Shown: positions 45 through 8,728 of the stretch, piece after piece
Position numbering within the stretch: the first letter of the stretch is position 1
Layout: each line of letters opens with the position of its first letter
Assembly: GCA_964628995.1 (NCBI GenBank)
Contig: CAZVPA010000103.1
Span: 1-8,860 of the forward strand
Length of the DNA: 8,860 nt
DNA from: an uncultured Nitrososphaerota archaeon
Lineage (GTDB): Archaea > Asgardarchaeota > Njordarchaeia > Njordarchaeales > Panguiarchaeaceae
Direction: 5' to 3'
Position numbers and translations under genes: made by a program
The notes under the pieces: generated by a model
What the model saw: the letters and a program-made list of their open reading frames with translations, nothing else
Databases searched by the model: none
Told to the model about the DNA's origin: nothing

Positions 45-614
45 CTACTCCACAATCTCTCTGAATGCCCTAGCCATTCTATATTCTTCAACTTTCTTCA
101 GGACACGACCATGTTTACTTCCTCTACAGATCGCCACCACAGCTTCCTTAGCGGCAAGCACATCCCAATATTTCCCAATTATTGCCACTTTCTTACCGCT
201 TATCGCTATTTTGACCCCCAACTCGTCCTCTATCTTAGATTTTATTTTTCCTCCTTTTCCAATCAATCTTGCTCTTATTCTGCTTAGGTCTCTTCCGCTT
301 TTGGCATATTCCTCAATATTTATTACCTCCAAGGTGTAGTCTGATTTTTCCGCCAAAATTAGGGCATCTTGAGGCGAAAAACCATGTGCTATTGCCTCAA
401 CCACCATCTTGGCCTTTAGGGCATTTTCGATATTGTCTCTGGGTGCCACTATTAATATCTCCTCCCTGCCTGGTCGTACTTTTATTTTCACTCCGAGAAG
501 TCTCTCTATTTTTTTCTCTACTGATCTCCTCGTTCCGATGACCACGCCAATACGCTCCTCACTTACCGACACAACCATGGCTATTTTTCCTTCATTATCC
601 GATGTTGTTTCCAT
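45..614 (-). CDS. KH-domain RNA-binding protein, archaeal Dim2/Pno1-like (two KH modules)
   Basis: 189-aa ORF. The C-terminal KH module has a canonical GXXG loop (LIGKGGKIKSKIEDELGVKI). The N-terminal KH-like module has a degenerate loop (VIGTRRSVEKKIERLLGVKIKV), as is typical of Dim2/Pno1. A GGTG Shine-Dalgarno-like motif lies about 6 nt upstream of the ATG at 614. Only 22 nt separate it from the stop of the upstream gene, with no TATA-like element, so co-transcription is likely. Confidence 0.8.
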   Translation of the reverse strand: METTSDNEGKIAMVVSVSEERIGVVIGTRRSVEKKIERLLGVKIKVRPGREEILIVAPRDNIENALKAKMVVEAIAHGFSPQDALILAEKSDYTLEVINIEEYAKSGRDLSRIRARLIGKGGKIKSKIEDELGVKIAISGKKVAIIGKYWDVLAAKEAVVAICRGSKHGRVLKKVEEYRMARAFREIVE

Positions 615-636
615 AATGACACCAGCAACATACCAC

Positions 637-1317
637 CTAATATTCCTGATCGAGAATCCTTATGACATTTCTAAAAATTATTAGAAGTCCCCGCTTAGCT
701 TTTTTCTCTATATCTCTAGACATTTCTGCTTCCCTGATGATATTTATCAGCTTACTGATATACTCTGAGTATCGCCTCAGATGTGGATTTTGAAGATTAT
801 CAATACATATTTTTATCATGGATAGGTTTTCTAGTAATGCTTTTTTATCTCCAACGCTCATACTTTTCCTCGCGCTGAGAATGTGTTGCCTCAGAGATTC
901 TATGGTATCCTCCTTTTTATATCGACTTTTAATAATCCGAATAACGTTTCTCAGCACATCAATTAAATCAAAGGATGTAATATCAGCATCGGATGGGTGA
1001 ACGCATCCAATGGATAAACCATGATAACTCACAAATATACATTCGGAACCATCAACGTTCATGTTTAGCTGGAAGACAGGTATGTCTCTACATGACACAC
1101 TTATGCTACTCCTCACTCTCAAATCCATCATATATTTCATATCAACCTGATAGAGGACCCATGAACGCACTGAGGGCAATACTTGGAGAATTCTTTTGTA
1201 TTTTTCGTCACCCATGAACAGTAACTCTAAACCATTATCATCGGATAAATAAACAGCCCTTGCCCCAGCATCGATAAGTTTTCCAACGAGTTTTCTTAAT
1301 TCTTCAACTCCAGACAT
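637..1317 (-). CDS. Roadblock/LC7 (MglB-like) domain protein with about 110-aa helical C-terminal extension
   Basis: The track ORF runs to 1374. I prefer the internal ATG at 1317 (MSGVEELRKLVGKLIDAGARAVYLSDDNGLELLFMG...). The 19 upstream codons (MFCFSFCAFVFKDNTDGQL) lie in a T-rich intergenic-looking stretch, and a TATA-like TTTTTAAAG sits about 26 nt upstream of 1317. The N-terminal pattern (helix, then ARAVYLSDDNGLELL strand pair, then helix and strands) resembles Roadblock/LC7. The functional call is by eye only. Confidence 0.55.
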   Translation of the reverse strand: MSGVEELRKLVGKLIDAGARAVYLSDDNGLELLFMGDEKYKRILQVLPSVRSWVLYQVDMKYMMDLRVRSSISVSCRDIPVFQLNMNVDGSECIFVSYHGLSIGCVHPSDADITSFDLIDVLRNVIRIIKSRYKKEDTIESLRQHILSARKSMSVGDKKALLENLSMIKICIDNLQNPHLRRYSEYISKLINIIREAEMSRDIEKKAKRGLLIIFRNVIRILDQEY

Positions 1318-1337
1318 TAGTTGACCATCGGTATTAT

Positions 1338-1347
1338 CTTTAAAAAC
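1338..1347 (-). promoter_or_regulatory. TATA-box-like element upstream of the Roadblock-like gene
   Basis: The minus strand reads GTTTTTAAAG, centred about 26 nt upstream of the ATG at 1317, which is the spacing expected for a leaderless or short-leader archaeal transcript. It is preceded (1350-1414) by several oligo-T runs on the minus strand that could terminate the GTPase transcript. Confidence 0.4.
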
Positions 1348-1414
1348 AAAAGCACAAAAGGAAAAACAAAACAAGTACTACTCAAATAGGAAAAACTATT
1401 AACAAATAAAATTC

Positions 1415-2296
1415 TTAAGGAAGCTCCTTTATCATTGACGCCAATATTTCTATGAACCTAGTTTTGGCATCAGGCCTTATTGCAACCATTGGGTATGAGG
1501 GAAAACCAGTAAGTTCTTCTATGGCTGACGCTGGAAGTCTATCTGGTAAATCTTGCTTATTAGCTATCAATACAAAACGCGAGTAGGGTGTTATCTTCAT
1601 TAAATATGGGAGTATTTCTTTCTGGAGTCTCTCAACATCATCTCTTGAGGAATCTGTCACCAGAACCACAAAGTCCGATCCCTCTGTTGTCACCATCCAT
1701 GTACGCCAGTATTCTGGCTGGCCAGCCACAGTAAATAGTGTTACCTTGAAGGGCTCTATACCTTCTATCTCAAGTTCTTCAACATCCGCCAGTATTGTTG
1801 GAATGTGCTTAGTTATGGAAATACCACGTGCTACAAGTTTTACTATTGTTGTTTTCCCGACACCACCATATCCAGTCAGTGTACACTTAACTGGTAATAG
1901 TTTTATTGCCTCCTCAACACACTCCCCAAACTTTATAGCCCCATCACTTTTTTCTTCGGCCTTCGATGTGTCTGAGAATATCTCAATAGCGTCCTCCATA
2001 AGTTTTCTTAGTACCTTCTCAAGTTCCTCAGCACCATTAACTCTATCCGCCAAAACCGATAACATAAAGTCTGATGTAATCATTATAGAGATTCTATACT
2101 GCCCCAGTTCTATTGAGTCCACCTCCTTGACGAAGTGTTCTCTCATGCCCAAAAGTATCCTATTTATCAGTGGGAAATTTGGTGTGAAATTGGCATAAGT
2201 ATCATAGAAAAGCTCATTACCGTAGGCGTCAAATAGTGCTACAGCACGAATCACCATATCATACACCCTATATACCATATATACTATAGACTTCAC
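1415..2296 (-). CDS. Small Ras-superfamily GTPase (MglA-like) with N-terminal longin/roadblock-like domain
   Basis: 293-aa ORF. G1 P-loop is GYGGVGKT (nt 1850-1873). A candidate switch I Thr is in HIPTILAD. G3 is TVAGQ (nt 1718-1732), with Thr in place of the usual Asp of DxxGQ, as in MglA TVPGQ. G4 is NKQD (nt 1550-1561). Residues about 14-107 (MVIRAVALFDAYGNELFYDTY...IELGQYRISIMITSDFMLSVLADR...EELEKVLRKLMEDAIEIF) show a strand-strand-helix-strand-strand-strand-helix pattern like longin or sigma-adaptin folds. The start is uncertain, with Met1 at 2296, Met7 or Met14 at 2257 all possible. Confidence 0.8.
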   Translation of the reverse strand: MKSIVYMVYRVYDMVIRAVALFDAYGNELFYDTYANFTPNFPLINRILLGMREHFVKEVDSIELGQYRISIMITSDFMLSVLADRVNGAEELEKVLRKLMEDAIEIFSDTSKAEEKSDGAIKFGECVEEAIKLLPVKCTLTGYGGVGKTTIVKLVARGISITKHIPTILADVEELEIEGIEPFKVTLFTVAGQPEYWRTWMVTTEGSDFVVLVTDSSRDDVERLQKEILPYLMKITPYSRFVLIANKQDLPDRLPASAIEELTGFPSYPMVAIRPDAKTRFIEILASMIKELP

Positions 2297-4149: not shown

Positions 4150-4470
4150 TCCAAAGACATCACCAATAGCATCCAGCCGAAAAACACTCCTTTTTTTCCT
4201 CTTTTAAATTTTTACTATTCAATGGGACTGTCCACCAAGATAAACTATCCTACTTTCAAGCTAGATTTCCTAACTAGGCTCCATGAAGCCCATATCATTA
4301 TCCGGTCAGTAGACGGTCTCTCATTCAACGGAATGATTACGAAGCCTTCACTTGATGTTACATCCCTATTGAAATGGATCGCAGGAAATAAAAACAACCA
4401 TTGAAAAATTTATTCTAGTAGGGAATATCGACGAAGGGTAATATTTTCTCAAAAGTAAGAGATTATTAGA

Positions 4471-4479
4471 GTGGCGCGG
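4471..4479. repeat. 9-nt direct repeat GTGGCGCGG, copy 1 (bounds permuted 5S unit)
   Basis: Identical to 4593-4601. The offset is exactly 122 nt, which equals 118 nt of 5S plus the 4-nt UUCG linker. Confidence 0.9.
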
Positions 4480-4592
4480 GGGTTTCCGAGTTCGAAATGG
4501 GTTCGGGCGTGGCCCGCGCCCTATGGCCGTCCGCCGAAGCGGACAGCACCGTCCTTTCGCCTGGGGTCTCCCACCAGACTACTCGGAGCGGC
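4471..4592 (-). rRNA. 5S rRNA, circularly permuted gene order (3' half - UUCG - 5' half), 122-nt minimal unit
   Basis: Minus strand 4534->4471 is the 5S 5' half, GCGGACGGCCAUAGGGCGCGGGCCACGCCCGAACCCAUUUCGAACUCGGAAACCCCCGCGCCAC. It carries the helix I 5' strand, loop A CAUAG, helix II, helix III CCGA/UCGG and the loop C box CCCAUUUCGAAC. Minus strand 4592->4539 is the 5S 3' half, GCCGCUCCGAGUAGUCUGGUGGGAGACCCCAGGCGAAAGGACGGUGCUGUCCGC. It carries helix V, loop E AGUA/GAA, helix IV and the helix I 3' strand. UUCG (4538->4535) links GUCCGC to GCGGAC. The two halves total 118 nt when placed in canonical order. Confidence 0.75.
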
Positions 4593-4601
4593 GTGGCGCG
4601 G
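4593..4601. repeat. 9-nt direct repeat GTGGCGCGG, copy 2
   Basis: Identical to 4471-4479. On the minus strand both copies read CCGCGCCAC, the helix II 3' strand. Confidence 0.9.
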
Positions 4602-4623
4602 CTTAGCCTTCGGCCCCCACACC
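4593..4623 (-). other. GC-rich 5' extension of the permuted 5S unit (degenerate partial 5S copy, leader arm of enclosing stem)
   Basis: The minus strand reads GGUGUGGGGGCCGAAGGCUAAGCCGCGCCAC. The segment GAAGGCUAAGCCGCGCCAC resembles the canonical archaeal loop B/helix II 3' strand (compare GGAAGUUAAGCCGCUCAC in Sulfolobus), and is closer to it than the copy at the 3' end of the unit (GGAAACCCCCGCGCCAC). Confidence 0.6.
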
Positions 4624-4656
4624 TTTCTCGCATAATAATGTAGTAGACAATATGCT

Positions 4657-4674
4657 ATTTAAAAATTTTTAAAT
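4657..4674. promoter_or_regulatory. Perfect 18-nt AT palindrome ATTTAAAAATTTTTAAAT, a TATA-box candidate for the 5S transcript and possibly bidirectional
   Basis: The sequence is its own reverse complement. Read on the minus strand, TTTTTAAAT lies about 35-45 nt upstream of the GC-rich block. That predicts a start near 4630-4640, which is where the leader arm of the enclosing stem begins. Confidence 0.4.
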
Positions 4675-4869: not shown

Positions 4870-5673
4870 ATGATGGCTCAAGGGAGTATCGCCGATAAGA
4901 ATATGTGTAAGAGCGAAGAAATGGTAATTTATGAAAAATCACCACTTGTGCGTCTATGGACTCACAGGATTCGAAAATTCTTAATTAACCTAATTGACCA
5001 GCTCAGGATGGATGGGCTTATAGAATCAAACTTTGAAGTTGATCTAATTGATCTAGTGAAGTCTACTATTGCTTGTGTCTTAGATAATATTAATATTAAG
5101 AATAAGTTGCGGGTATATATATATGACATATCCATTGCGTGCTTTTGGCTTAAACTTCAGGAATGTGGTACGACTAAAATTTCCCCAATAAAACTTGTAA
5201 GTATGGCAAAAAAAATCCTTGGCAGGCGTGTAACTCACGGAAAAGTATTAAAAGTATTGGCATATATTAAAAAATATAGACATGGAAGAGGCTTGGATCC
5301 TATTGAAGATATAAAAAGGCATATATTCATCATACTGGATAACATGTTTAGGGACAAGGAGTTCATACAAACAAGATTCAATACAGATGATGTATACTCA
5401 ATGAATTTGATAGATCTCAAGCTAAATATTATTAAAAATGTAGGTAAATATCTATTGTTGATTCCACGTGAGAAAATTGTTGGAATACCTAGGAGAGTAT
5501 TTAGTGCAGTCTTTCTTTATGCTTTGTTGCGGTTGTTATCTGAGGAACATGGGGGTGTTCAGATATACTCGAGTGACATTGAAAGGTTCTCGGGGGTATC
5601 GCGATTCACGATATTAAGAAAGTATAAGACTATAAAAAAGTACCTACATGGTAATCGTGTATATGTACAGTAA
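4870..5673 (+). CDS. TFB/TFIIB-like protein: two cyclin-fold repeats, no N-terminal Zn-ribbon or B-reader
   Basis: 267-aa ORF. The C-terminal segment GIPRRVFSAVFLYALLRLLSEEHGGVQIYSSDIERFSGVSRFTILRKYKTIKKYL matches by eye the second TFB cyclin repeat (GKSPxxLxAAALYIAxxLxGExRTQxEVAxVxxVTEVTVRNRYKEL). The first repeat candidate is YDISIACFWLKLQECGTTKISPIKLVSMAKKILGRRVTHGKVLKVLAYIKKY. There is no CxxC pair anywhere. TATA-like TTATATAT/TATAAAA lies 30-50 nt upstream. Confidence 0.6.
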   Translation: MMAQGSIADKNMCKSEEMVIYEKSPLVRLWTHRIRKFLINLIDQLRMDGLIESNFEVDLIDLVKSTIACVLDNINIKNKLRVYIYDISIACFWLKLQECGTTKISPIKLVSMAKKILGRRVTHGKVLKVLAYIKKYRHGRGLDPIEDIKRHIFIILDNMFRDKEFIQTRFNTDDVYSMNLIDLKLNIIKNVGKYLLLIPREKIVGIPRRVFSAVFLYALLRLLSEEHGGVQIYSSDIERFSGVSRFTILRKYKTIKKYLHGNRVYVQ

Positions 5674-5742: not shown

Positions 5743-7281
5743 TTGGAGTTGATATACCACAATAGGGTAGCGAGATATATTGTTTCGGAGGGTATGTATA
5801 GATTTGAACTCAAGGAGACATTCAAAAACACAGCAAACATACTTTTTCCTCTTTTTCTAAAGTTTTTTGATAATCAACCCATAAGTACTCTAATCAACTT
5901 TGATGTACTAGAATCAGAGTTTATGAAGTATGTAAAGAGAGAGAGGGTAGTATATAGATATCTAAAAAAATTTCTAGATGGATATAACCACGATAACATG
6001 AAAGATATGGTGATTTTTCTTGTTTTCAAAATGTTTGATATCGAAGTTTTGTTTCCAATAATAGCTGATGTATTGGTTAATGAACTATTTGTAGATGGAC
6101 ATGGAAGAAGAATCTATATAGACCACGCGTTACTCGGAAGGCGAGATACTGAAATATTGTTGAATTCCAGACAGATCAGCAATTTATTATTATTTATAAA
6201 AGTCTATGGAGACACTCTAATAGCGGGGATCAATCCATCGGCTAAAATAGACCTACGTTTTCATAATCAAAGATTGCGAATCAGTGTTGATTCGGATCGG
6301 AGGGGCAGAGTATCAATAGCTATAAGGAAACTCTCTAGTATTCCTCCATTCTTCTCTCTTATACGTGATGTAAACAACAGGAAGATCTTATCATTGATAG
6401 CCACGCTCATGGTATTCCGTCCAAATATTGTAATATTCGGAGAAACTGGTGCGGGTAAGACAACACTAGCTGGTATACTATTGAGTATTCTTCCAGACTC
6501 TTGGAGGATAATAACCATAGAAGATGTACTAGAAATACCAGATAAACTAATTGAAAACAAAAGAATTGTTAGGATTCTTGTCCCAACTTTCGAGACACGA
6601 TTGGTAGCTCCTTTAAGCCGGAATAAATTCATGGTGTTGAAGGAGACGGAGATAATAAAACTATTACATAGATCTCCAGATTTCTGCTTTATCAGCGAGA
6701 TACAGGATGCCTCTGATACGAGAGCGATCTTTCATGCATTTGCTGCTGGAATAAGGGGAATAGCTACCACGCATGCGCGGGATATCTATGGGTTACTAAA
6801 CAGATGGATGGGAATATATAATATCCCTTCCGAATGGGTCCACCTAATAGATATTCTAATTTTTATGGTAAGAGAGCTACATGGAGGGGGGATACGCAGA
6901 AGTATAGGATCTGTATATATCCCAATAAATGCATCATCGGGAAGCGCATTGGTCAGGGATGATTTATTTTTAACATACACAATCAAAAACCGCAGGATAG
7001 AGTTCATTAATATTCCATTAAGTAATGCTTTCTCTCTAGAGTATATCAAGAAAATACTAAGCGTATTTTTTCTAAAGCGATTAAACAGGCCATGTAACAG
7101 AAAAATAGGTACTCTTGTAGAATTATTTAATAATATCTATAATGCTCTTGGAAAGATGCTAAAACTTATAGGTGGCCAAGGGTTCTCTATTGATGATTCA
7201 CTTCAGGAAAGAGCGTTTACAATTTTTAGAGATATAGCAAAAAAAATCGAGAAAACAATCAATGAGACCCTAATGTGCTAG
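5743..7281 (+). CDS. Secretion-superfamily ATPase (FlaI/VirB11/GspE/TadA family), divergent
   Basis: 512 aa. N-domain signatures are VNELFVDG, RLRISV and IAIRKL. Walker A is GETGAGKTT (nt 6439-6465), the Asp box is RIITIEDVLEI, the Walker B region is DFCFISEIQD (family consensus GE(I/V)RD) and the His box is GIATTHA. The start is either TTG at 5743, preceded by GGTGG with a 6-nt spacer, or ATG at 5794, preceded by GGAGGG at very short spacing. A 69-nt gap from the TFB-like gene has no clear TATA, so co-transcription is possible. Confidence 0.85.
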   Translation: MELIYHNRVARYIVSEGMYRFELKETFKNTANILFPLFLKFFDNQPISTLINFDVLESEFMKYVKRERVVYRYLKKFLDGYNHDNMKDMVIFLVFKMFDIEVLFPIIADVLVNELFVDGHGRRIYIDHALLGRRDTEILLNSRQISNLLLFIKVYGDTLIAGINPSAKIDLRFHNQRLRISVDSDRRGRVSIAIRKLSSIPPFFSLIRDVNNRKILSLIATLMVFRPNIVIFGETGAGKTTLAGILLSILPDSWRIITIEDVLEIPDKLIENKRIVRILVPTFETRLVAPLSRNKFMVLKETEIIKLLHRSPDFCFISEIQDASDTRAIFHAFAAGIRGIATTHARDIYGLLNRWMGIYNIPSEWVHLIDILIFMVRELHGGGIRRSIGSVYIPINASSGSALVRDDLFLTYTIKNRRIEFINIPLSNAFSLEYIKKILSVFFLKRLNRPCNRKIGTLVELFNNIYNALGKMLKLIGGQGFSIDDSLQERAFTIFRDIAKKIEKTINETLMC

Positions 7282-7414: not shown

Positions 7415-8728
7415 ATGTCAAAAGCCAAAAAACCCCACGTAAATCTCGTAGTCATAGGCCACGTTGACCATGGAAAATCCACGCTGATGGGACATTTCCT
7501 ATACAAGATGGGTGCTATTGACGAGAGAATCATAGAGAAATATAGAAAGGAGGCTGCAGAAATAGGCCGAGAATCATGGGCATATGCATGGGTTCTCGAC
7601 ACATTAAAGGAGGAACGATCACGAGGACTAACGATAGACCCAACATACACGAAATTCGAGACGGACAAATACTTCTTCACACTGATTGATGCCCCAGGCC
7701 ACAGAGACTTCATAAAGAACATGATCTCTGGAACATCACAAGCAGATGCGGCAATACTAGTAGTCTCGGCAAAATCAAATGAATTCGAGGCAGGATTCAG
7801 CAGAGGCGGACAAACAAGAGAGCATGCGATTCTAGCTAAGATTCTAGGGATAAATAACCTGATAGTATGTGTAAATAAGATGGATGCCGTGGGCTATAAG
7901 AAGGATGCATACGAATACGTGAAGAGTGAATTATCGAAATTCCTGAAAACAATAGGCTTTAACTTAGATAGGGTACCCTTTGTACCAACAAGCGGTCTCA
8001 AGGGAGACAACTTGGTTGAAAAATCAGAAAATATGCCTTGGTATGATGGCCCAACACTAAAGGAGGCACTGGACAAATATATCGAGCCTCCACCAGTTCC
8101 GATAGATAAACCATTAAGGGTACCGATAGGGAAAGTTCTAAAGATAACAGGTGTAGGCACAGTTGCCACGGGCAGGGTGGCTACAGGCGTGCTAAAACCG
8201 GGCGATAAGGTGATAATAAATCCACCTCAAATACGCACAGTTGCTCAATCTATTGAAATGCATCACACAAAGCTTGACCAAGCAATACCTGGAGATAATA
8301 TAGGGATAAACCTCAAGGGTGTGGCGGTGACAGACATAAAGCGAGGGGATGTCCTAGGACATGAAACTAATCCTCCCACGATAATCGGTCCAGAGGTTGC
8401 TCGGGTCCTTGCGAGGATATCCGTCGTGTGGCATCCTACATCGATAGCGGCCGGCTATACACCTGTACTGCATGCCCACACACTTCAAATAGCTACTCGG
8501 TTTGTGAAGATAAAAGCCAAATATGCGCCCACGGGCGAGCTTATCGAGGAAAATCCGTCCTTCATCAAGACTGGCGATGCTGCTGATGTCATACTTGAAC
8601 CAATAAAGAAGTGTGTTTTAGAAAAAGCAGCGGAATTCCCACAGCTTGGTCGTTTCGCGATTAGAGATATGGGCCAGCTAATTGCTGTGGGCATAGTTAG
8701 GGATATTCTTCCACCAGACGCAGAATAA
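7415..8728 (+). CDS. tuf: Translation elongation factor EF-1alpha (aEF1A)
   Basis: 437 aa. G1 is GHVDHGKST, G3 is DAPGHRDF, G4 is NKMD, and RGLTID plus the domain II/III sequences (GTVATGRVATG) are typical of archaeal EF-1alpha. An AAGGGGAT SD-like motif lies just upstream of the ATG. Confidence 0.97.
   Translation: MSKAKKPHVNLVVIGHVDHGKSTLMGHFLYKMGAIDERIIEKYRKEAAEIGRESWAYAWVLDTLKEERSRGLTIDPTYTKFETDKYFFTLIDAPGHRDFIKNMISGTSQADAAILVVSAKSNEFEAGFSRGGQTREHAILAKILGINNLIVCVNKMDAVGYKKDAYEYVKSELSKFLKTIGFNLDRVPFVPTSGLKGDNLVEKSENMPWYDGPTLKEALDKYIEPPPVPIDKPLRVPIGKVLKITGVGTVATGRVATGVLKPGDKVIINPPQIRTVAQSIEMHHTKLDQAIPGDNIGINLKGVAVTDIKRGDVLGHETNPPTIIGPEVARVLARISVVWHPTSIAAGYTPVLHAHTLQIATRFVKIKAKYAPTGELIEENPSFIKTGDAADVILEPIKKCVLEKAAEFPQLGRFAIRDMGQLIAVGIVRDILPPDAE

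What the first reader, a model, noticed from the sequence alone, without database searches (positions are those of the whole stretch)
4471..4592. Circularly permuted 5S rRNA gene: the 3' half precedes the 5' half and helix I is capped by a UUCG tetraloop
Seen directly: on the minus strand the order is [helix V - loop E (GAGUAG...CGAAAGG) - helix IV - helix I 3' strand GUCCGC] - UUCG - [helix I 5' strand GCGGAC - loop A CAUAG - helix II GGGCGCGGG - helix III - loop C CCCAUUUCGAAC - helix II 3' strand CCCCGCGCC]. Rotating the two halves gives a 118-nt molecule in which every 5S helix can be paired by hand. Helix I is GCGGACGGCC/GG-UGCUGUCCGC with one bulge, helix V is CCG-UCC/GGA-CGG, and helix IV is CUG..GGG/CCCCAG. 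It aligns closely with Sulfolobus and Haloarcula 5S as I remember them. In the genomic order the natural 5' and 3' ends are covalently closed by a C(UUCG)G loop, and new ends open at the helix II/loop A boundary. The sequences immediately beyond both edges are about 20% GC, so no colinear 5S can be read through this locus in either orientation. Established background: circularly permuted RNA genes are known for tRNAs (red alga, some Thermoproteota), Thermoproteus SRP RNA and Pyrococcus 23S rRNA. Permuted 5S has been reported in some mitochondria, and engineered permuted 5S works in E. coli ribosomes. I am not aware of a natural permuted 5S in Archaea. Inference: the ribosome of this organism uses either a linear permuted 5S or a circularised one.
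Basis: partly seen in the sequence, partly recalled or inferred. Interest (0 to 1): 0.92.

Follow-up and report, generated by a model that had tools for sequence, protein, structure and literature searches.

The report
Permuted 5S rRNA gene of Asgard archaea
This archaeon's 5S ribosomal RNA gene is written back half first between two flanks that pair into a tRNA-splicing signal, so the RNA is most likely cut and rejoined into a small circle, and the same layout in many Asgard lineages could explain why their 5S genes have not been found.

Summary
On the minus strand, 4629->4469 is one compact transcription unit. It reads: leader, 5S nt 52-120, UUCG cap, 5S nt 1-51, trailer. Leader and trailer form a 10-bp helix. 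This abuts a 4-bp helix (CCGA/UCGG) flanked by two 3-nt bulges on opposite strands, which is a relaxed bulge-helix-bulge (BHB) motif. Cutting after the second bulge nucleotide and ligating gives ...CGGAA|GCUAAGCC..., the canonical 5S sequence with no indel, as a 124-nt circle.

I found the same architecture in 16 further distinct loci. They come from MAGs or contigs labelled, or neighbouring genes labelled, Njord-, Odin-, Loki-, Hel-, Hod- and Thorarchaeota. Covariation is strong in every 5S helix and in the leader-trailer helix (94% paired, 43 of 52 pairs with compensatory changes). The BHB sits in three different registers, and each yields a canonical-length product.

Rfam's 5S model misses all of these loci. 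A paper on closed Asgard genomes states that 5S genes could not be predicted. I found no report of an archaeal permuted 5S in the library searched. No RNA data were available, so cleavage, ligation and the final circular form are inferred.

The parts
4656..4665 (-). TATA-like box TTTTTAAATA preceded by an A-rich stretch; candidate archaeal promoter about 27 nt upstream of the leader stem
   Evidence: Sequence read directly. Similar TTTATA/TTTAAA boxes lie 30-50 nt upstream of the leader in L171, L196, L087, L137, L131, L195 and L160. Promoter function is inferred, not tested.
4627..4629 (-). Outer leader stem GAG, pairs with CUC at 4471-4469 across a small internal loop
   Evidence: Minimum-free-energy fold of 4660->4440.
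4614..4623 (-). Leader strand of processing helix h (GGUGUGGGGG), pairs with 4482-4473
   Evidence: Folds. Across 8 homologues 95% of cells pair and 12 of 13 pairs show compensatory changes, reached by 0 of 500 shuffles. Across 17 sequences all 13 pairs show double changes.
4610..4613 (-). Leader strand of the central 4-bp helix H (CCGA), pairs with UCGG at 4489-4486
   Evidence: CCG/CGG is invariant in the 8 Njord-type sequences even though the leader is discarded. An unbiased BHB scan picks this helix.
4607..4609 (-). Leader 3-nt bulge AGG; predicted cleavage between 4608 and 4607, so the mature RNA starts at G4607
   Evidence: Geometry. The product junction matches the 5S consensus. The cleavage itself is inferred.
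4539..4607 (-). 5S rRNA nt 52-120: outer helix III pair GC, loop B UAAG, helix II 3' strand CCGCGCC, helix V, loop E GAGUAG...GCGAAAGG, helix IV, loop D, helix I 3' strand
   Evidence: Rfam partial hit, covariation of helices, profile HMM hit hmm 54-115.
4535..4538 (-). UUCG tetraloop closing helix I, joining the natural 3' end to the natural 5' end
   Evidence: The homologues have caps UUCG (9 of 17), UGCG, GCAA, UUUG, UUUU, UAGA, UUUAU and CUUUAA on helices I of differing length.
4484..4534 (-). 5S rRNA nt 1-51: helix I 5' strand, loop A CAUAG, helix II 5' strand, helix III, loop C CCCAUUUCGAAC, helix III 3' strand UCGG and the AA bulge
   Evidence: Rfam partial hit, covariation, profile HMM hit hmm 5-52.
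4483..4485 (-). Trailer-side 3-nt bulge AAA; predicted cleavage between 4484 and 4483. The first two A's are the conserved AA bulge of 5S helix III
   Evidence: AAA is invariant in the 8 Njord-type sequences.
4473..4482 (-).
   Evidence: One search supports its role in helix h. argues against its role in helix II.
4469..4471 (-). CUC, outer trailer stem pairing with GAG at 4629-4627
4451..4454 (-). T-tract (CTTTTG), candidate archaeal terminator about 15 nt after the trailer helix
   Evidence: Sequence. T-rich runs follow the trailer in the homologues. Terminator function is inferred.

Best explanation
Window 4629->4469 (minus strand) is the functional 5S rRNA gene of an Asgard archaeon related to Njordarchaeia, encoded in circularly permuted order. 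The primary transcript reads: leader, 5S nt 52-120, UUCG, 5S nt 1-51, trailer.

Shown by comparison: leader and trailer pair into a 10-bp helix, extended by 3 more pairs, that brings the two permuted ends together. Next to it the leader's CCGA pairs with UCGG of helix III. This leaves a 3-nt bulge on each strand, separated by 4 bp, which is a relaxed hBH-type bulge-helix-bulge motif.

Inferred: the tRNA splicing endonuclease cuts after the second nucleotide of each bulge (4608|4607 and 4484|4483). An RtcB-type ligase then joins A51 to G52. This restores helix III, with its AA bulge and GC/GC outer pairs, and yields a 124-nt covalently closed 5S rRNA whose helix I stays capped by UUCG.

More weakly inferred: this circle, not a re-opened linear form, is what enters the ribosome.

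The same design occurs across Asgard lineages, so it is probably their normal 5S gene.
For: (1) Permuted order. Rfam gives half-hits in swapped order. The rotated, ligated product is one full-length hit to a profile of 84 ordinary 5S genes at 60.3 bits; gene order gives two pieces that break at hmm 52/54.

(2) Conservation. CM R1 was built from 8 sequences. It finds full-length matches that were not in its training set: 166-173 bits in L083/L082/L084/L085, L090 and L087, and 62-114 bits in L109, L166, L211, L212, L213/L214, L215 and L216. About 105 ordinary 5S genes score below 50 bits.

(3) Covariation. In 17 distinct sequences 94.3% of cells pair and 43 of 52 pairs carry compensatory changes, reached by 0 of 500 shuffles. 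Slid controls pair at 34-46%. The leader-trailer helix has 12 of 13, then 13 of 13, covarying pairs.

(4) The BHB rule predicts the product. An unbiased scan finds h(5-16 bp)-H(4 bp)-two 3-nt bulges in 15 of 16 loci. There are three registers: Odin -1, Njord/Thor-like 0, Loki/Hel/Hod-like +1. In each register the two cut sites shift together, so the junction always reads CGG-NN-NN-UAAG/UAAA as in canonical 5S (by hand for L109).

(5) The pairs that span the ligation junction covary (GC:12/AU:2 and CG:10/UA:5).

(6) The discarded leader nucleotides CCG and A, and the trailer's third bulge A and first C, are invariant in the Njord-type set. This indicates a processing signal.

(7) The same H(4)-bulge(3), cut-after-second-nucleotide geometry accounts for a 13-nt tRNA intron in relative L087 when compared with its intronless orthologue in L086.

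(8) Published work reports that Asgard archaea carry the (alpha-beta)2 splicing endonuclease with the L1 loop, linked to broad specificity for relaxed BHB motifs (PMC5829648; PMC6379350).

(9) Misassembly is excluded. L118 and L090 are the identical locus from two metagenomes, and L082-L085 come from four NCBI assemblies.

(10) Precedent exists: the permuted SRP RNA gene of Thermoproteus is cut by the splicing endonuclease and is a functional circle (PMC4731332).
Against: There are no RNA data, so cleavage, ligation, circularity and ribosome incorporation are all inferred.

The motif lacks the inner helix h'. Opposite the leader bulge lies the displaced helix III/loop C, so this is a relaxed motif, not a canonical BHB.

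The fourth pair of H is non-Watson-Crick in 3 of the 8 Njord-type sequences. L109 needs a G.A pair in H and two A.C mismatches in h, and the automatic scan missed it.

H shows no covariation, because its partner CGG is fixed by 5S function.

The position of the cut within a bulge rests on my recollection of the BHB literature plus internal consistency. It was not measured.

Only 8.9 kb of this genome is available, so a second, colinear 5S cannot be excluded here.

One paper reports 5S genes in two Asgard MAGs, Borrarchaeum and Jordarchaeum (PMC9723677). Either not every Asgard lineage need be permuted, or those hits are partial or contaminant.

Lineage names come from MAG labels in public records and are inconsistent (Korarchaeota, Thermoproteota and Njordarchaeia for close relatives).
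Confidence: 0.8

Rival explanations
1. One reading: a linear (or circular) permuted 5S whose ends open at the helix II/loop A boundary. Helix II would be formed by GGGCGCGGG and the downstream CCCCGCGCC (4481-4473), and the upstream GC-rich stretch would have no role.
For: In the window alone this folds well: 8-bp helix II, -59.1 kcal/mol. The direct repeat CCGCGCCAC occurs at both ends.
Against: Across 8 homologues this helix pairs in 59% of cells, the level of shuffles (56%), with 1 covarying pair. The upstream strand pairs in 100% with 4 of 7 covarying. In L131, L137, L195 and L160 the trailer has no complementarity to helix II at all. This model also deletes the conserved UAAG of loop B; Rfam needs a 4-nt gap to align it.
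Confidence: 0.02
2. The BHB is cut but the ends are not ligated. The ribosome would use a linear, permuted 5S with a nick between nt 51 and 52 in helix III, held together by helices II and III.
For: All the evidence for cleavage applies equally. Helix II (7 bp) could hold the nicked molecule together. Brown-algal mitochondrial 5S is permuted in its final product (PMC4267664).
Against: From my own knowledge of the field: in archaea, RNAs released by BHB cleavage are generally ligated by RtcB. In the Thermoproteus SRP RNA the termini are ligated (PMC4731332). The 2-bp outer helix III that spans the junction covaries and would be very weak without covalent continuity. The nick would also fall at the conserved AA bulge.
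Confidence: 0.1
3. The circle is only an intermediate. It would be re-opened in or near the helix I cap to give a conventional linear 5S with ordinary ends, as happens with permuted tRNAs.
For: Permuted tRNA genes work this way (background cited in PMC4267664, and PMC6379350). Circular pre-16S and pre-23S are classically described as being re-linearised (PMC12918454).
Against: The linker is only 4-6 nt. In 11 of 17 sequences it is a hyperstable UNCG or GNRA tetraloop sitting on helices I of differing length. This looks like selection for a permanent cap, not a processing site, and no conserved sequence surrounds it. Circular mature RNAs have been reported for 23S rRNA (PMC12918454) and SRP RNA (PMC4731332).
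Confidence: 0.15
4. The locus is a rearranged pseudogene or an assembly chimera, and the working 5S lies elsewhere.
For: Only one 8.9-kb contig of this genome is available, and Rfam does not call the locus.
Against: There are 17 distinct homologous loci from independent assemblies and samples. All helices covary and loops A, C and E are conserved. Identical loci were assembled independently. No canonical 5S turned up in any fetched Asgard locus. Authors of closed Asgard genomes could not predict a 5S gene (PMC8813620).
Confidence: 0.01

Closest known systems
Permuted SRP RNA gene of Thermoproteus tenax (Plagens et al. 2015, PMC4731332)
   Same: A universal structured RNA is encoded in permuted order. 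Its termini lie next to a functional helix or loop. The tRNA splicing endonuclease processes the circularisation site, and the ligated circle is the functional molecule. The gene was also missed by standard searches.
   Different: The RNA is 5S rRNA, not SRP RNA. The SRP case is limited to some Thermoproteus species, whereas this arrangement spans several Asgard classes. The SRP case has RNA-seq, binding and cleavage assays; here everything after the sequence itself is inferred.
Circularly permuted tRNA genes (Cyanidioschyzon merolae; Thermofilum pendens)
   Same: The 3' half lies upstream of the 5' half. Leader and trailer form a BHB or relaxed BHB. Cleavage plus ligation produces a circle that restores the broken element.
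   Different: In tRNAs the linker between the natural ends is removed to create free acceptor ends. Here the linker is a 4-6-nt stable tetraloop with no sign of a processing signal. The break falls in helix III of an rRNA.
BHB-dependent circularisation of archaeal pre-16S/23S rRNA; circular 23S in ribosomes (PMC12918454); permuted 23S of Pyrococcus furiosus (PMC7758197)
   Same: A processing stem formed by flanks carries a BHB. EndA and ligase make a circular rRNA, and a circular or permuted rRNA can be the ribosomal form.
   Different: Those genes are colinear, and any permutation arises after transcription. Here the gene itself is permuted and ligation is needed to rebuild the RNA. PMC12918454 states that circularisation applies to 16S and 23S 'but not 5S rRNAs'.
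Permuted mitochondrial 5S rRNA of brown algae (Valach et al. 2014, PMC4267664; Rfam mtPerm-5S)
   Same: It is a 5S rRNA whose helix I is replaced or closed by a hairpin, so the ends are not at the tip of helix I.
   Different: In the algal case the ends sit at the alpha/gamma domain junction, there is no leader-trailer helix or BHB, and the final product is a linear permuted RNA in an organelle. No Rfam family other than 5S_rRNA halves was listed here; one overlapping same-clan match, which could be a mitochondrial 5S model, was left out by the tool.
Engineered circularly permuted 5S rRNA in E. coli (recalled from memory, not checked here)
   Same: Helix I is closed by a tetraloop and new ends are placed elsewhere, and the ribosome tolerates this.
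   Different: It is an artificial construct, in bacteria, with no splicing-endonuclease step.

Membership tests
5S rRNA (Rfam RF00001) | Reaches the curated Rfam score as a colinear molecule | tested here: not met
   No hit at gathering score. Two half-hits of 25.9 and 21.4 bits against a cutoff of 38, in swapped order. The same failure occurred in 13 further loci. This is expected for a permuted gene.
5S rRNA (Rfam RF00001) | Three-way junction with helices I-V that are conserved and covary | tested here: met
   In permuted order 98.4% of cells pair across 8 sequences and 94.3% across 17 sequences, with 43 of 52 pairs showing compensatory changes.
5S rRNA (Rfam RF00001) | Conserved loop sequences (loop A CAUAG, loop C CCCAUnnCGAAC, AA bulge, loop B UAAG, loop E AGUA/GAAA) at canonical spacing after rotation | tested here: met
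   Invariant columns in A2. The rotated, ligated product is a single hit, hmm 5-115, 60.3 bits, to a profile of 84 ordinary 5S genes. The junction CGGAA|GCUAAGC matches the Rfam consensus CggAAguUAAGc.
5S rRNA (Rfam RF00001) | Is the 5S component of the ribosome | not testable with these tools
   Needs RNA or ribosome data.
Permuted RNA genes repaired by splicing endonuclease plus ligase (permuted tRNA, Thermoproteus SRP RNA) | 3' part encoded upstream of 5' part on one strand and in one transcription unit | tested here: met
   A promoter-like box and a T-tract flank the unit, though transcription was not tested.
Permuted RNA genes repaired by splicing endonuclease plus ligase | Leader and trailer pair to bring the permuted ends together | tested here: met
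   A 10-16 bp helix in Njord-type loci and 5-14 bp in the others. 12 of 13 pairs and 13 of 13 pairs covary.
Permuted RNA genes repaired by splicing endonuclease plus ligase | Two 3-nt bulges on opposite strands separated by a 4-bp helix (definition in PMC6379350) | tested here: met
   Found by an unbiased scan in 15 of 16 loci, and by hand in L109. The fourth pair of H is non-standard in 3 of the 8 Njord-type loci.
Permuted RNA genes repaired by splicing endonuclease plus ligase | Inner helix h' closing the second bulge (strict hBHBh') | tested here: not met
   The nucleotides after the leader bulge do not pair with those before H'. The motif is therefore the relaxed hBH/BHL type. The (alpha-beta)2 EndA with L1 loop reported for Asgard is linked to cleavage of relaxed motifs.
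Permuted RNA genes repaired by splicing endonuclease plus ligase | Cleavage by EndA and ligation to a circle observed | not testable with these tools
   No RNA-seq or enzymology available. There is only indirect support, from the canonical product in three registers and covariation across the junction.
Permuted mitochondrial 5S (mtPerm-5S) | Ends at the alpha/gamma junction, helix I replaced by a terminal hairpin, no processing helix (PMC4267664) | tested here: not met
   The break here is in helix III between nt 51 and 52 and is flanked by a covarying leader-trailer helix. No match to that family was listed, though one search dropped one overlapping match from the same clan.

The most novel reading that the evidence does not exclude
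Asgard archaea as a group, the closest known prokaryotic relatives of eukaryotes, encode their only 5S rRNA as a circularly permuted gene. The tRNA splicing endonuclease and RNA ligase must cut and rejoin its transcript. The mature 5S in their ribosomes would then be a covalently closed circle of about 121-134 nt with no free ends. This would explain why 5S genes could not be predicted even in closed Asgard genomes, and it would be the first permuted 5S gene and the first end-less 5S rRNA in any cellular, non-organellar lineage.
Probability: 0.5. Interest if true: 0.95.

Novelty: new variant of a known kind. Interest (0 to 1): 0.93.

Why it matters
5S rRNA is a universal ribosomal RNA, and its gene is taken to be colinear in all Bacteria, Archaea and nuclei. 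A permuted 5S gene fixed across several Asgard classes would have four consequences.

1. It would resolve a practical puzzle. A paper on closed Asgard genomes states that 5S could not be predicted by existing models (PMC8813620). MAG quality standards also ask for a 5S gene (from my own knowledge).
2. It would add an essential rRNA to the substrates of the tRNA splicing machinery, making that machinery indispensable for ribosome assembly in this lineage.
3. It would extend the recent picture of circular rRNAs in archaeal ribosomes from 23S to 5S, which current reviews explicitly exclude.
4. It would give a shared derived character for Asgard phylogeny and for thinking about rRNA processing at the root of eukaryotes.

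The claim is immediately testable in cultured Asgard strains and in existing metatranscriptomes. The covariance model built here could annotate the gene.

Tried and rejected
A conserved peptide pattern matched hundreds of bacteria, the best hit was 47% identical and no relatives were recovered.

2. I expected the 5S to be syntenic upstream of CysRS in relatives. Instead L083 and L086-L090 carry tRNAs and a C/D-box-like RNA there. The 5S turned up elsewhere in three of those loci only once the covariance model existed.

3. I underestimated the hit count for the metagenome DNA pattern. Only 9 were permuted, and they were picked out by a hairpin test.

4. Neither could folding energy. Comparative data decided it.

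6. The automatic BHB scan failed for L109 because of mismatches in h. That locus was resolved by hand.

7. I looked for a C/D box sRNA between the 5S and CysRS in the window and found nothing.

8. Seven literature searches for an archaeal permuted or circular 5S found none.

9. I could not scan custom (rotated) sequences with Rfam's CM. As substitutes I used a permuted-order CM and an nhmmer profile of ordinary 5S genes.
Full report
**What is in the window.** The minus strand between about 4629 and 4469 is a 68-69% GC island in a 39% GC contig. The sequence on either side of it is 22-28% GC. Rfam finds nothing at its curated thresholds, and ARAGORN finds no tRNA. In E-value mode the 5S model gives two sub-threshold hits on the minus strand in swapped order. 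The 5' half of the model matches 4534->~4471 at 25.9 bits. The 3' half matches 4614->4538 at 21.4 bits.

**Correction of the anatomy.** The stretch 4607-4593 reads GCUAAGCCGCGCCAC, which matches the consensus guUAAGcgccc of loop B and the helix II 3' strand. Folding the whole island pairs the leader GGUGUGGGGG-CCGA (4623-4610) with UCGG-AAA-CCCCCGCGCC (4489-4473). A further GAG/CUC stem lies outside this pairing.

On each strand the order is long helix h, then a 4-bp helix H, then a 3-nt bulge. The two bulges (AGG at 4609-4607 and AAA at 4485-4483) lie on opposite strands, 4 bp apart. That is the geometry of the archaeal bulge-helix-bulge motif, defined as two 3-nt bulges separated by a 4-bp helix (PMC6379350).

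Cutting after the second bulge nucleotide on each strand and ligating gives ...ACUCGGAA|GCUAAGCCGCGCC.... This is colinear with the Rfam consensus ACuCggAAguUAAGcgcc and has no indel. It restores the AA bulge and a 2-bp outer extension of helix III (G27:C53 and C28:G52). The product is a 124-nt circle (4607->4484) made of 5S nt 52-120, UUCG and nt 1-51.

The position of the cut within a bulge is my recollection of the BHB literature. The same geometry does account for a 13-nt D-loop intron in a tRNA of relative L087 when compared with its intronless orthologue in L086.

**Finding relatives.** The contig's CysRS has its best named relatives in MAGs labelled Njordarchaeales or Njordarchaeia, and also 'Thermoproteota', 'Crenarchaeota' or 'Korarchaeota archaeon'. 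The window also encodes an Arf-family GTPase. These point to an Asgard archaeon related to Njordarchaeia, although the public labels are inconsistent.

A hairpin test singled out seven of these in which helix I is closed immediately before CAUAG and has no downstream partner. Two further permuted loci among the 120 (L109, L166) were recognised later with the covariance model. All seven share the window's layout, including a leader-trailer helix of unrelated sequence.

**Covariation tests (8 sequences, alignment A2).**
- Leader-trailer helix: 95% of cells pair, and 12 of 13 pairs carry compensatory double changes. None of 500 shuffles reaches this, and slid controls pair at 23-48%.
- 5S fold in permuted order, using the upstream helix II strand: 98.4% paired, with 22 of 39 pairs showing double changes.

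The break lies in helix III, between nt 51 and 52. In the Njord-type set the discarded leader nucleotides CCG and A, and the trailer's third bulge A and first C, are invariant. This is what a processing signal would look like.

**A model and independent hits.** A covariance model of the permuted unit (R1) scores the training sequences at 165-181 bits. It also finds full-length matches that were not used to build it:
- L083 (173 bits), and L082, L084 and L085 (170.5 bits), from four NCBI assemblies;
- L090 (170.9 bits), identical to L118 but from another metagenome;
- L087 (166 bits);
- weaker but full-length hits in L109 (70 bits) and L166 (62 bits).

The roughly 105 ordinary 5S genes in the same data set score below 50 bits. 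Identical loci assembled independently rule out a chimeric assembly.

**Spread across Asgard.** The genes next to L109 are labelled Candidatus Helarchaeota and include ESCRT-II and longin homologues. I followed the adjacent DUF1512 gene into other lineages. The model then found a full-length permuted 5S in every locus fetched:
- Odinarchaeia, L213/L214: 113.7 bits;
- 'Lokiarchaeota archaeon', L212: 78.3 bits;
- Helarchaeota, L211: 72.7 bits;
- L215: 64.9 bits;
- a MAG labelled Hodarchaeota, L216: 61.6 bits.

The gene next to L166 is 82% identical to a Thorarchaeota-labelled protein. Rfam calls no 5S in any of these loci. Across the 17 distinct sequences, 94.3% of cells pair and 43 of 52 pairs show compensatory changes. 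The two pairs that span the predicted ligation junction covary as well (GC:12/AU:2 and CG:10/UA:5).

**The BHB rule holds in three registers.** An unbiased scan for h (at least 5 bp), H (4 bp) and two 3-nt bulges recovers the motif in 15 of 16 loci.
- Odin: the motif sits one nucleotide earlier (CGUG/CACG, bulges AAA and GAA), giving CACGGA|AGUUAAGC.
- Loki-, Hel- and Hod-labelled loci: it sits one nucleotide later (GCCG/CGGU or UCCG/CGGA), giving CGGUAA|UUAAGC or CGGAAG|UUAAGCC.
- Njord- and Thor-like loci: the register is the window's.

In each case the two cut sites move together, so the product keeps the canonical spacing. Circle sizes are 121-134 nt. L109 fits by hand but needs a G.A pair in H and two A.C mismatches in h. 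After in-silico ligation and rotation, every product is a single full-length hit to a profile of 84 ordinary 5S genes. In gene order each splits at hmm 52/54.

**Mechanism.** Shown by sequence and comparison: the permuted order, the conserved 5S fold, the covarying leader-trailer helix, the BHB-like geometry and the canonical ligation product.

Inferred: cleavage by the splicing endonuclease and ligation by RtcB. The motif lacks the inner helix h', so it is a relaxed (hBH/BHL) substrate. Asgard archaea are reported to carry the (alpha-beta)2 endonuclease with the L1 loop, which is associated with broad specificity (PMC5829648; PMC6379350).

More weakly inferred: the circle is the mature form. 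The caps on helix I are UUCG in 9 of 17 sequences, plus one UGCG and one GCAA. They sit on helices I of varying length with no conserved surroundings. This looks like selection for a permanent cap, not a processing site. The rival end states are re-linearisation at the cap and an unligated nick.

**Comparison with what is known.** The closest analogue is the permuted SRP RNA gene of Thermoproteus tenax. It is cut by the splicing endonuclease and functions as a circle (PMC4731332). Permuted tRNA genes share the logic but lose their linker. Archaeal 16S and 23S are circularised at BHB motifs from colinear genes, and a 2026 paper states that this applies to 16S and 23S 'but not 5S rRNAs' (PMC12918454). 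The permuted mitochondrial 5S of brown algae has different ends, no processing helix and a linear product (PMC4267664).

Seven full-text searches found no report of a permuted or circular 5S in Archaea. [quoted passage not shown] This architecture would explain that. One paper does list 5S genes in two Asgard MAGs (PMC9723677), so universality within Asgard remains open.

**Verdict.** The locus is a member of an unreported, phylum-wide class of permuted 5S rRNA genes flanked by a relaxed BHB. The main gap is the complete absence of RNA-level evidence.

Noticed in passing
L086 8784-9009; L087 2291-2537; L088 1-250; L089 1-115; L083 9802-9887: In relatives, the region upstream of CysRS, where the window has its 5S, holds tRNA genes and a C/D-box-like RNA (TGATGA...CTGA...TGATGA...CTGA). 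The 5S gene has therefore moved relative to CysRS within this clade. In L083 and L118 it follows a cluster of three tRNA genes on the same strand.
   Followed up: partly
L087 2464-2537 versus L086 8935-9009: Orthologous tRNA genes differ by a 13-nt insertion in the D-loop (GGGUAG[AUAUGUUGCCUAA]AGCG). The insertion fits a mini BHB (GGGU/GCCU helix, bulges AGA and AAA, cuts after the second bulge nucleotide). This shows non-canonical introns in the same lineage.
   Followed up: partly
window 4601-4593 and 4479-4471 (minus strand): The 9-nt direct repeat CCGCGCCAC occurs as the true helix II 3' strand plus AC, and again as the end of the trailer helix. Close relatives L171 and L196 keep a similar trailer, while distant ones do not.
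   Followed up: partly
window 1415-2296 (-), 637-1374 (-), 45-614 (-), 4870-5673 (+), 5743-7281 (+), 7415-8728 (+): Gene content: an Arf/Ras-family small GTPase with an N-terminal extension, two proteins with no Pfam match, a KH-domain (PNO1-like) protein, a T2SS/T4P-type ATPase and EF-1alpha. The block of EF-1alpha, the ATPase and an unknown protein of about 260 aa lies next to the 5S in the window and L118, and within about 2 kb of it in L083.
   Followed up: partly
L211 9325-9479, L212 9340-9491, L215 9444-9598, L216 4534-4688, L109 3219-3373: In Loki-, Hel- and Hod-labelled loci the permuted 5S lies about 400-550 bp upstream of, and divergent from, a DUF1512 gene, which is followed by a cytidylyltransferase-like gene. 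In Odin (L213) it lies about 1.8 kb downstream of the same pair. This synteny was good enough to find the gene by protein look-up.
   Followed up: yes
L213 14369-14536 (-): A tRNA hit spans 168 nt in an Odinarchaeia contig, which implies one or more long introns.
   Followed up: no
L118 4891-5177 and L090 5350-5640: The 5S locus and its flanks are identical in contigs from two different JGI metagenomes (Ga0190367 and Ga0164318), so the same organism was sampled twice.
   Followed up: yes
L211 14917-18588 (-): An MCM helicase gene in the Helarchaeota contig carries intein and LAGLIDADG domains, according to the precomputed Pfam list.
   Followed up: no
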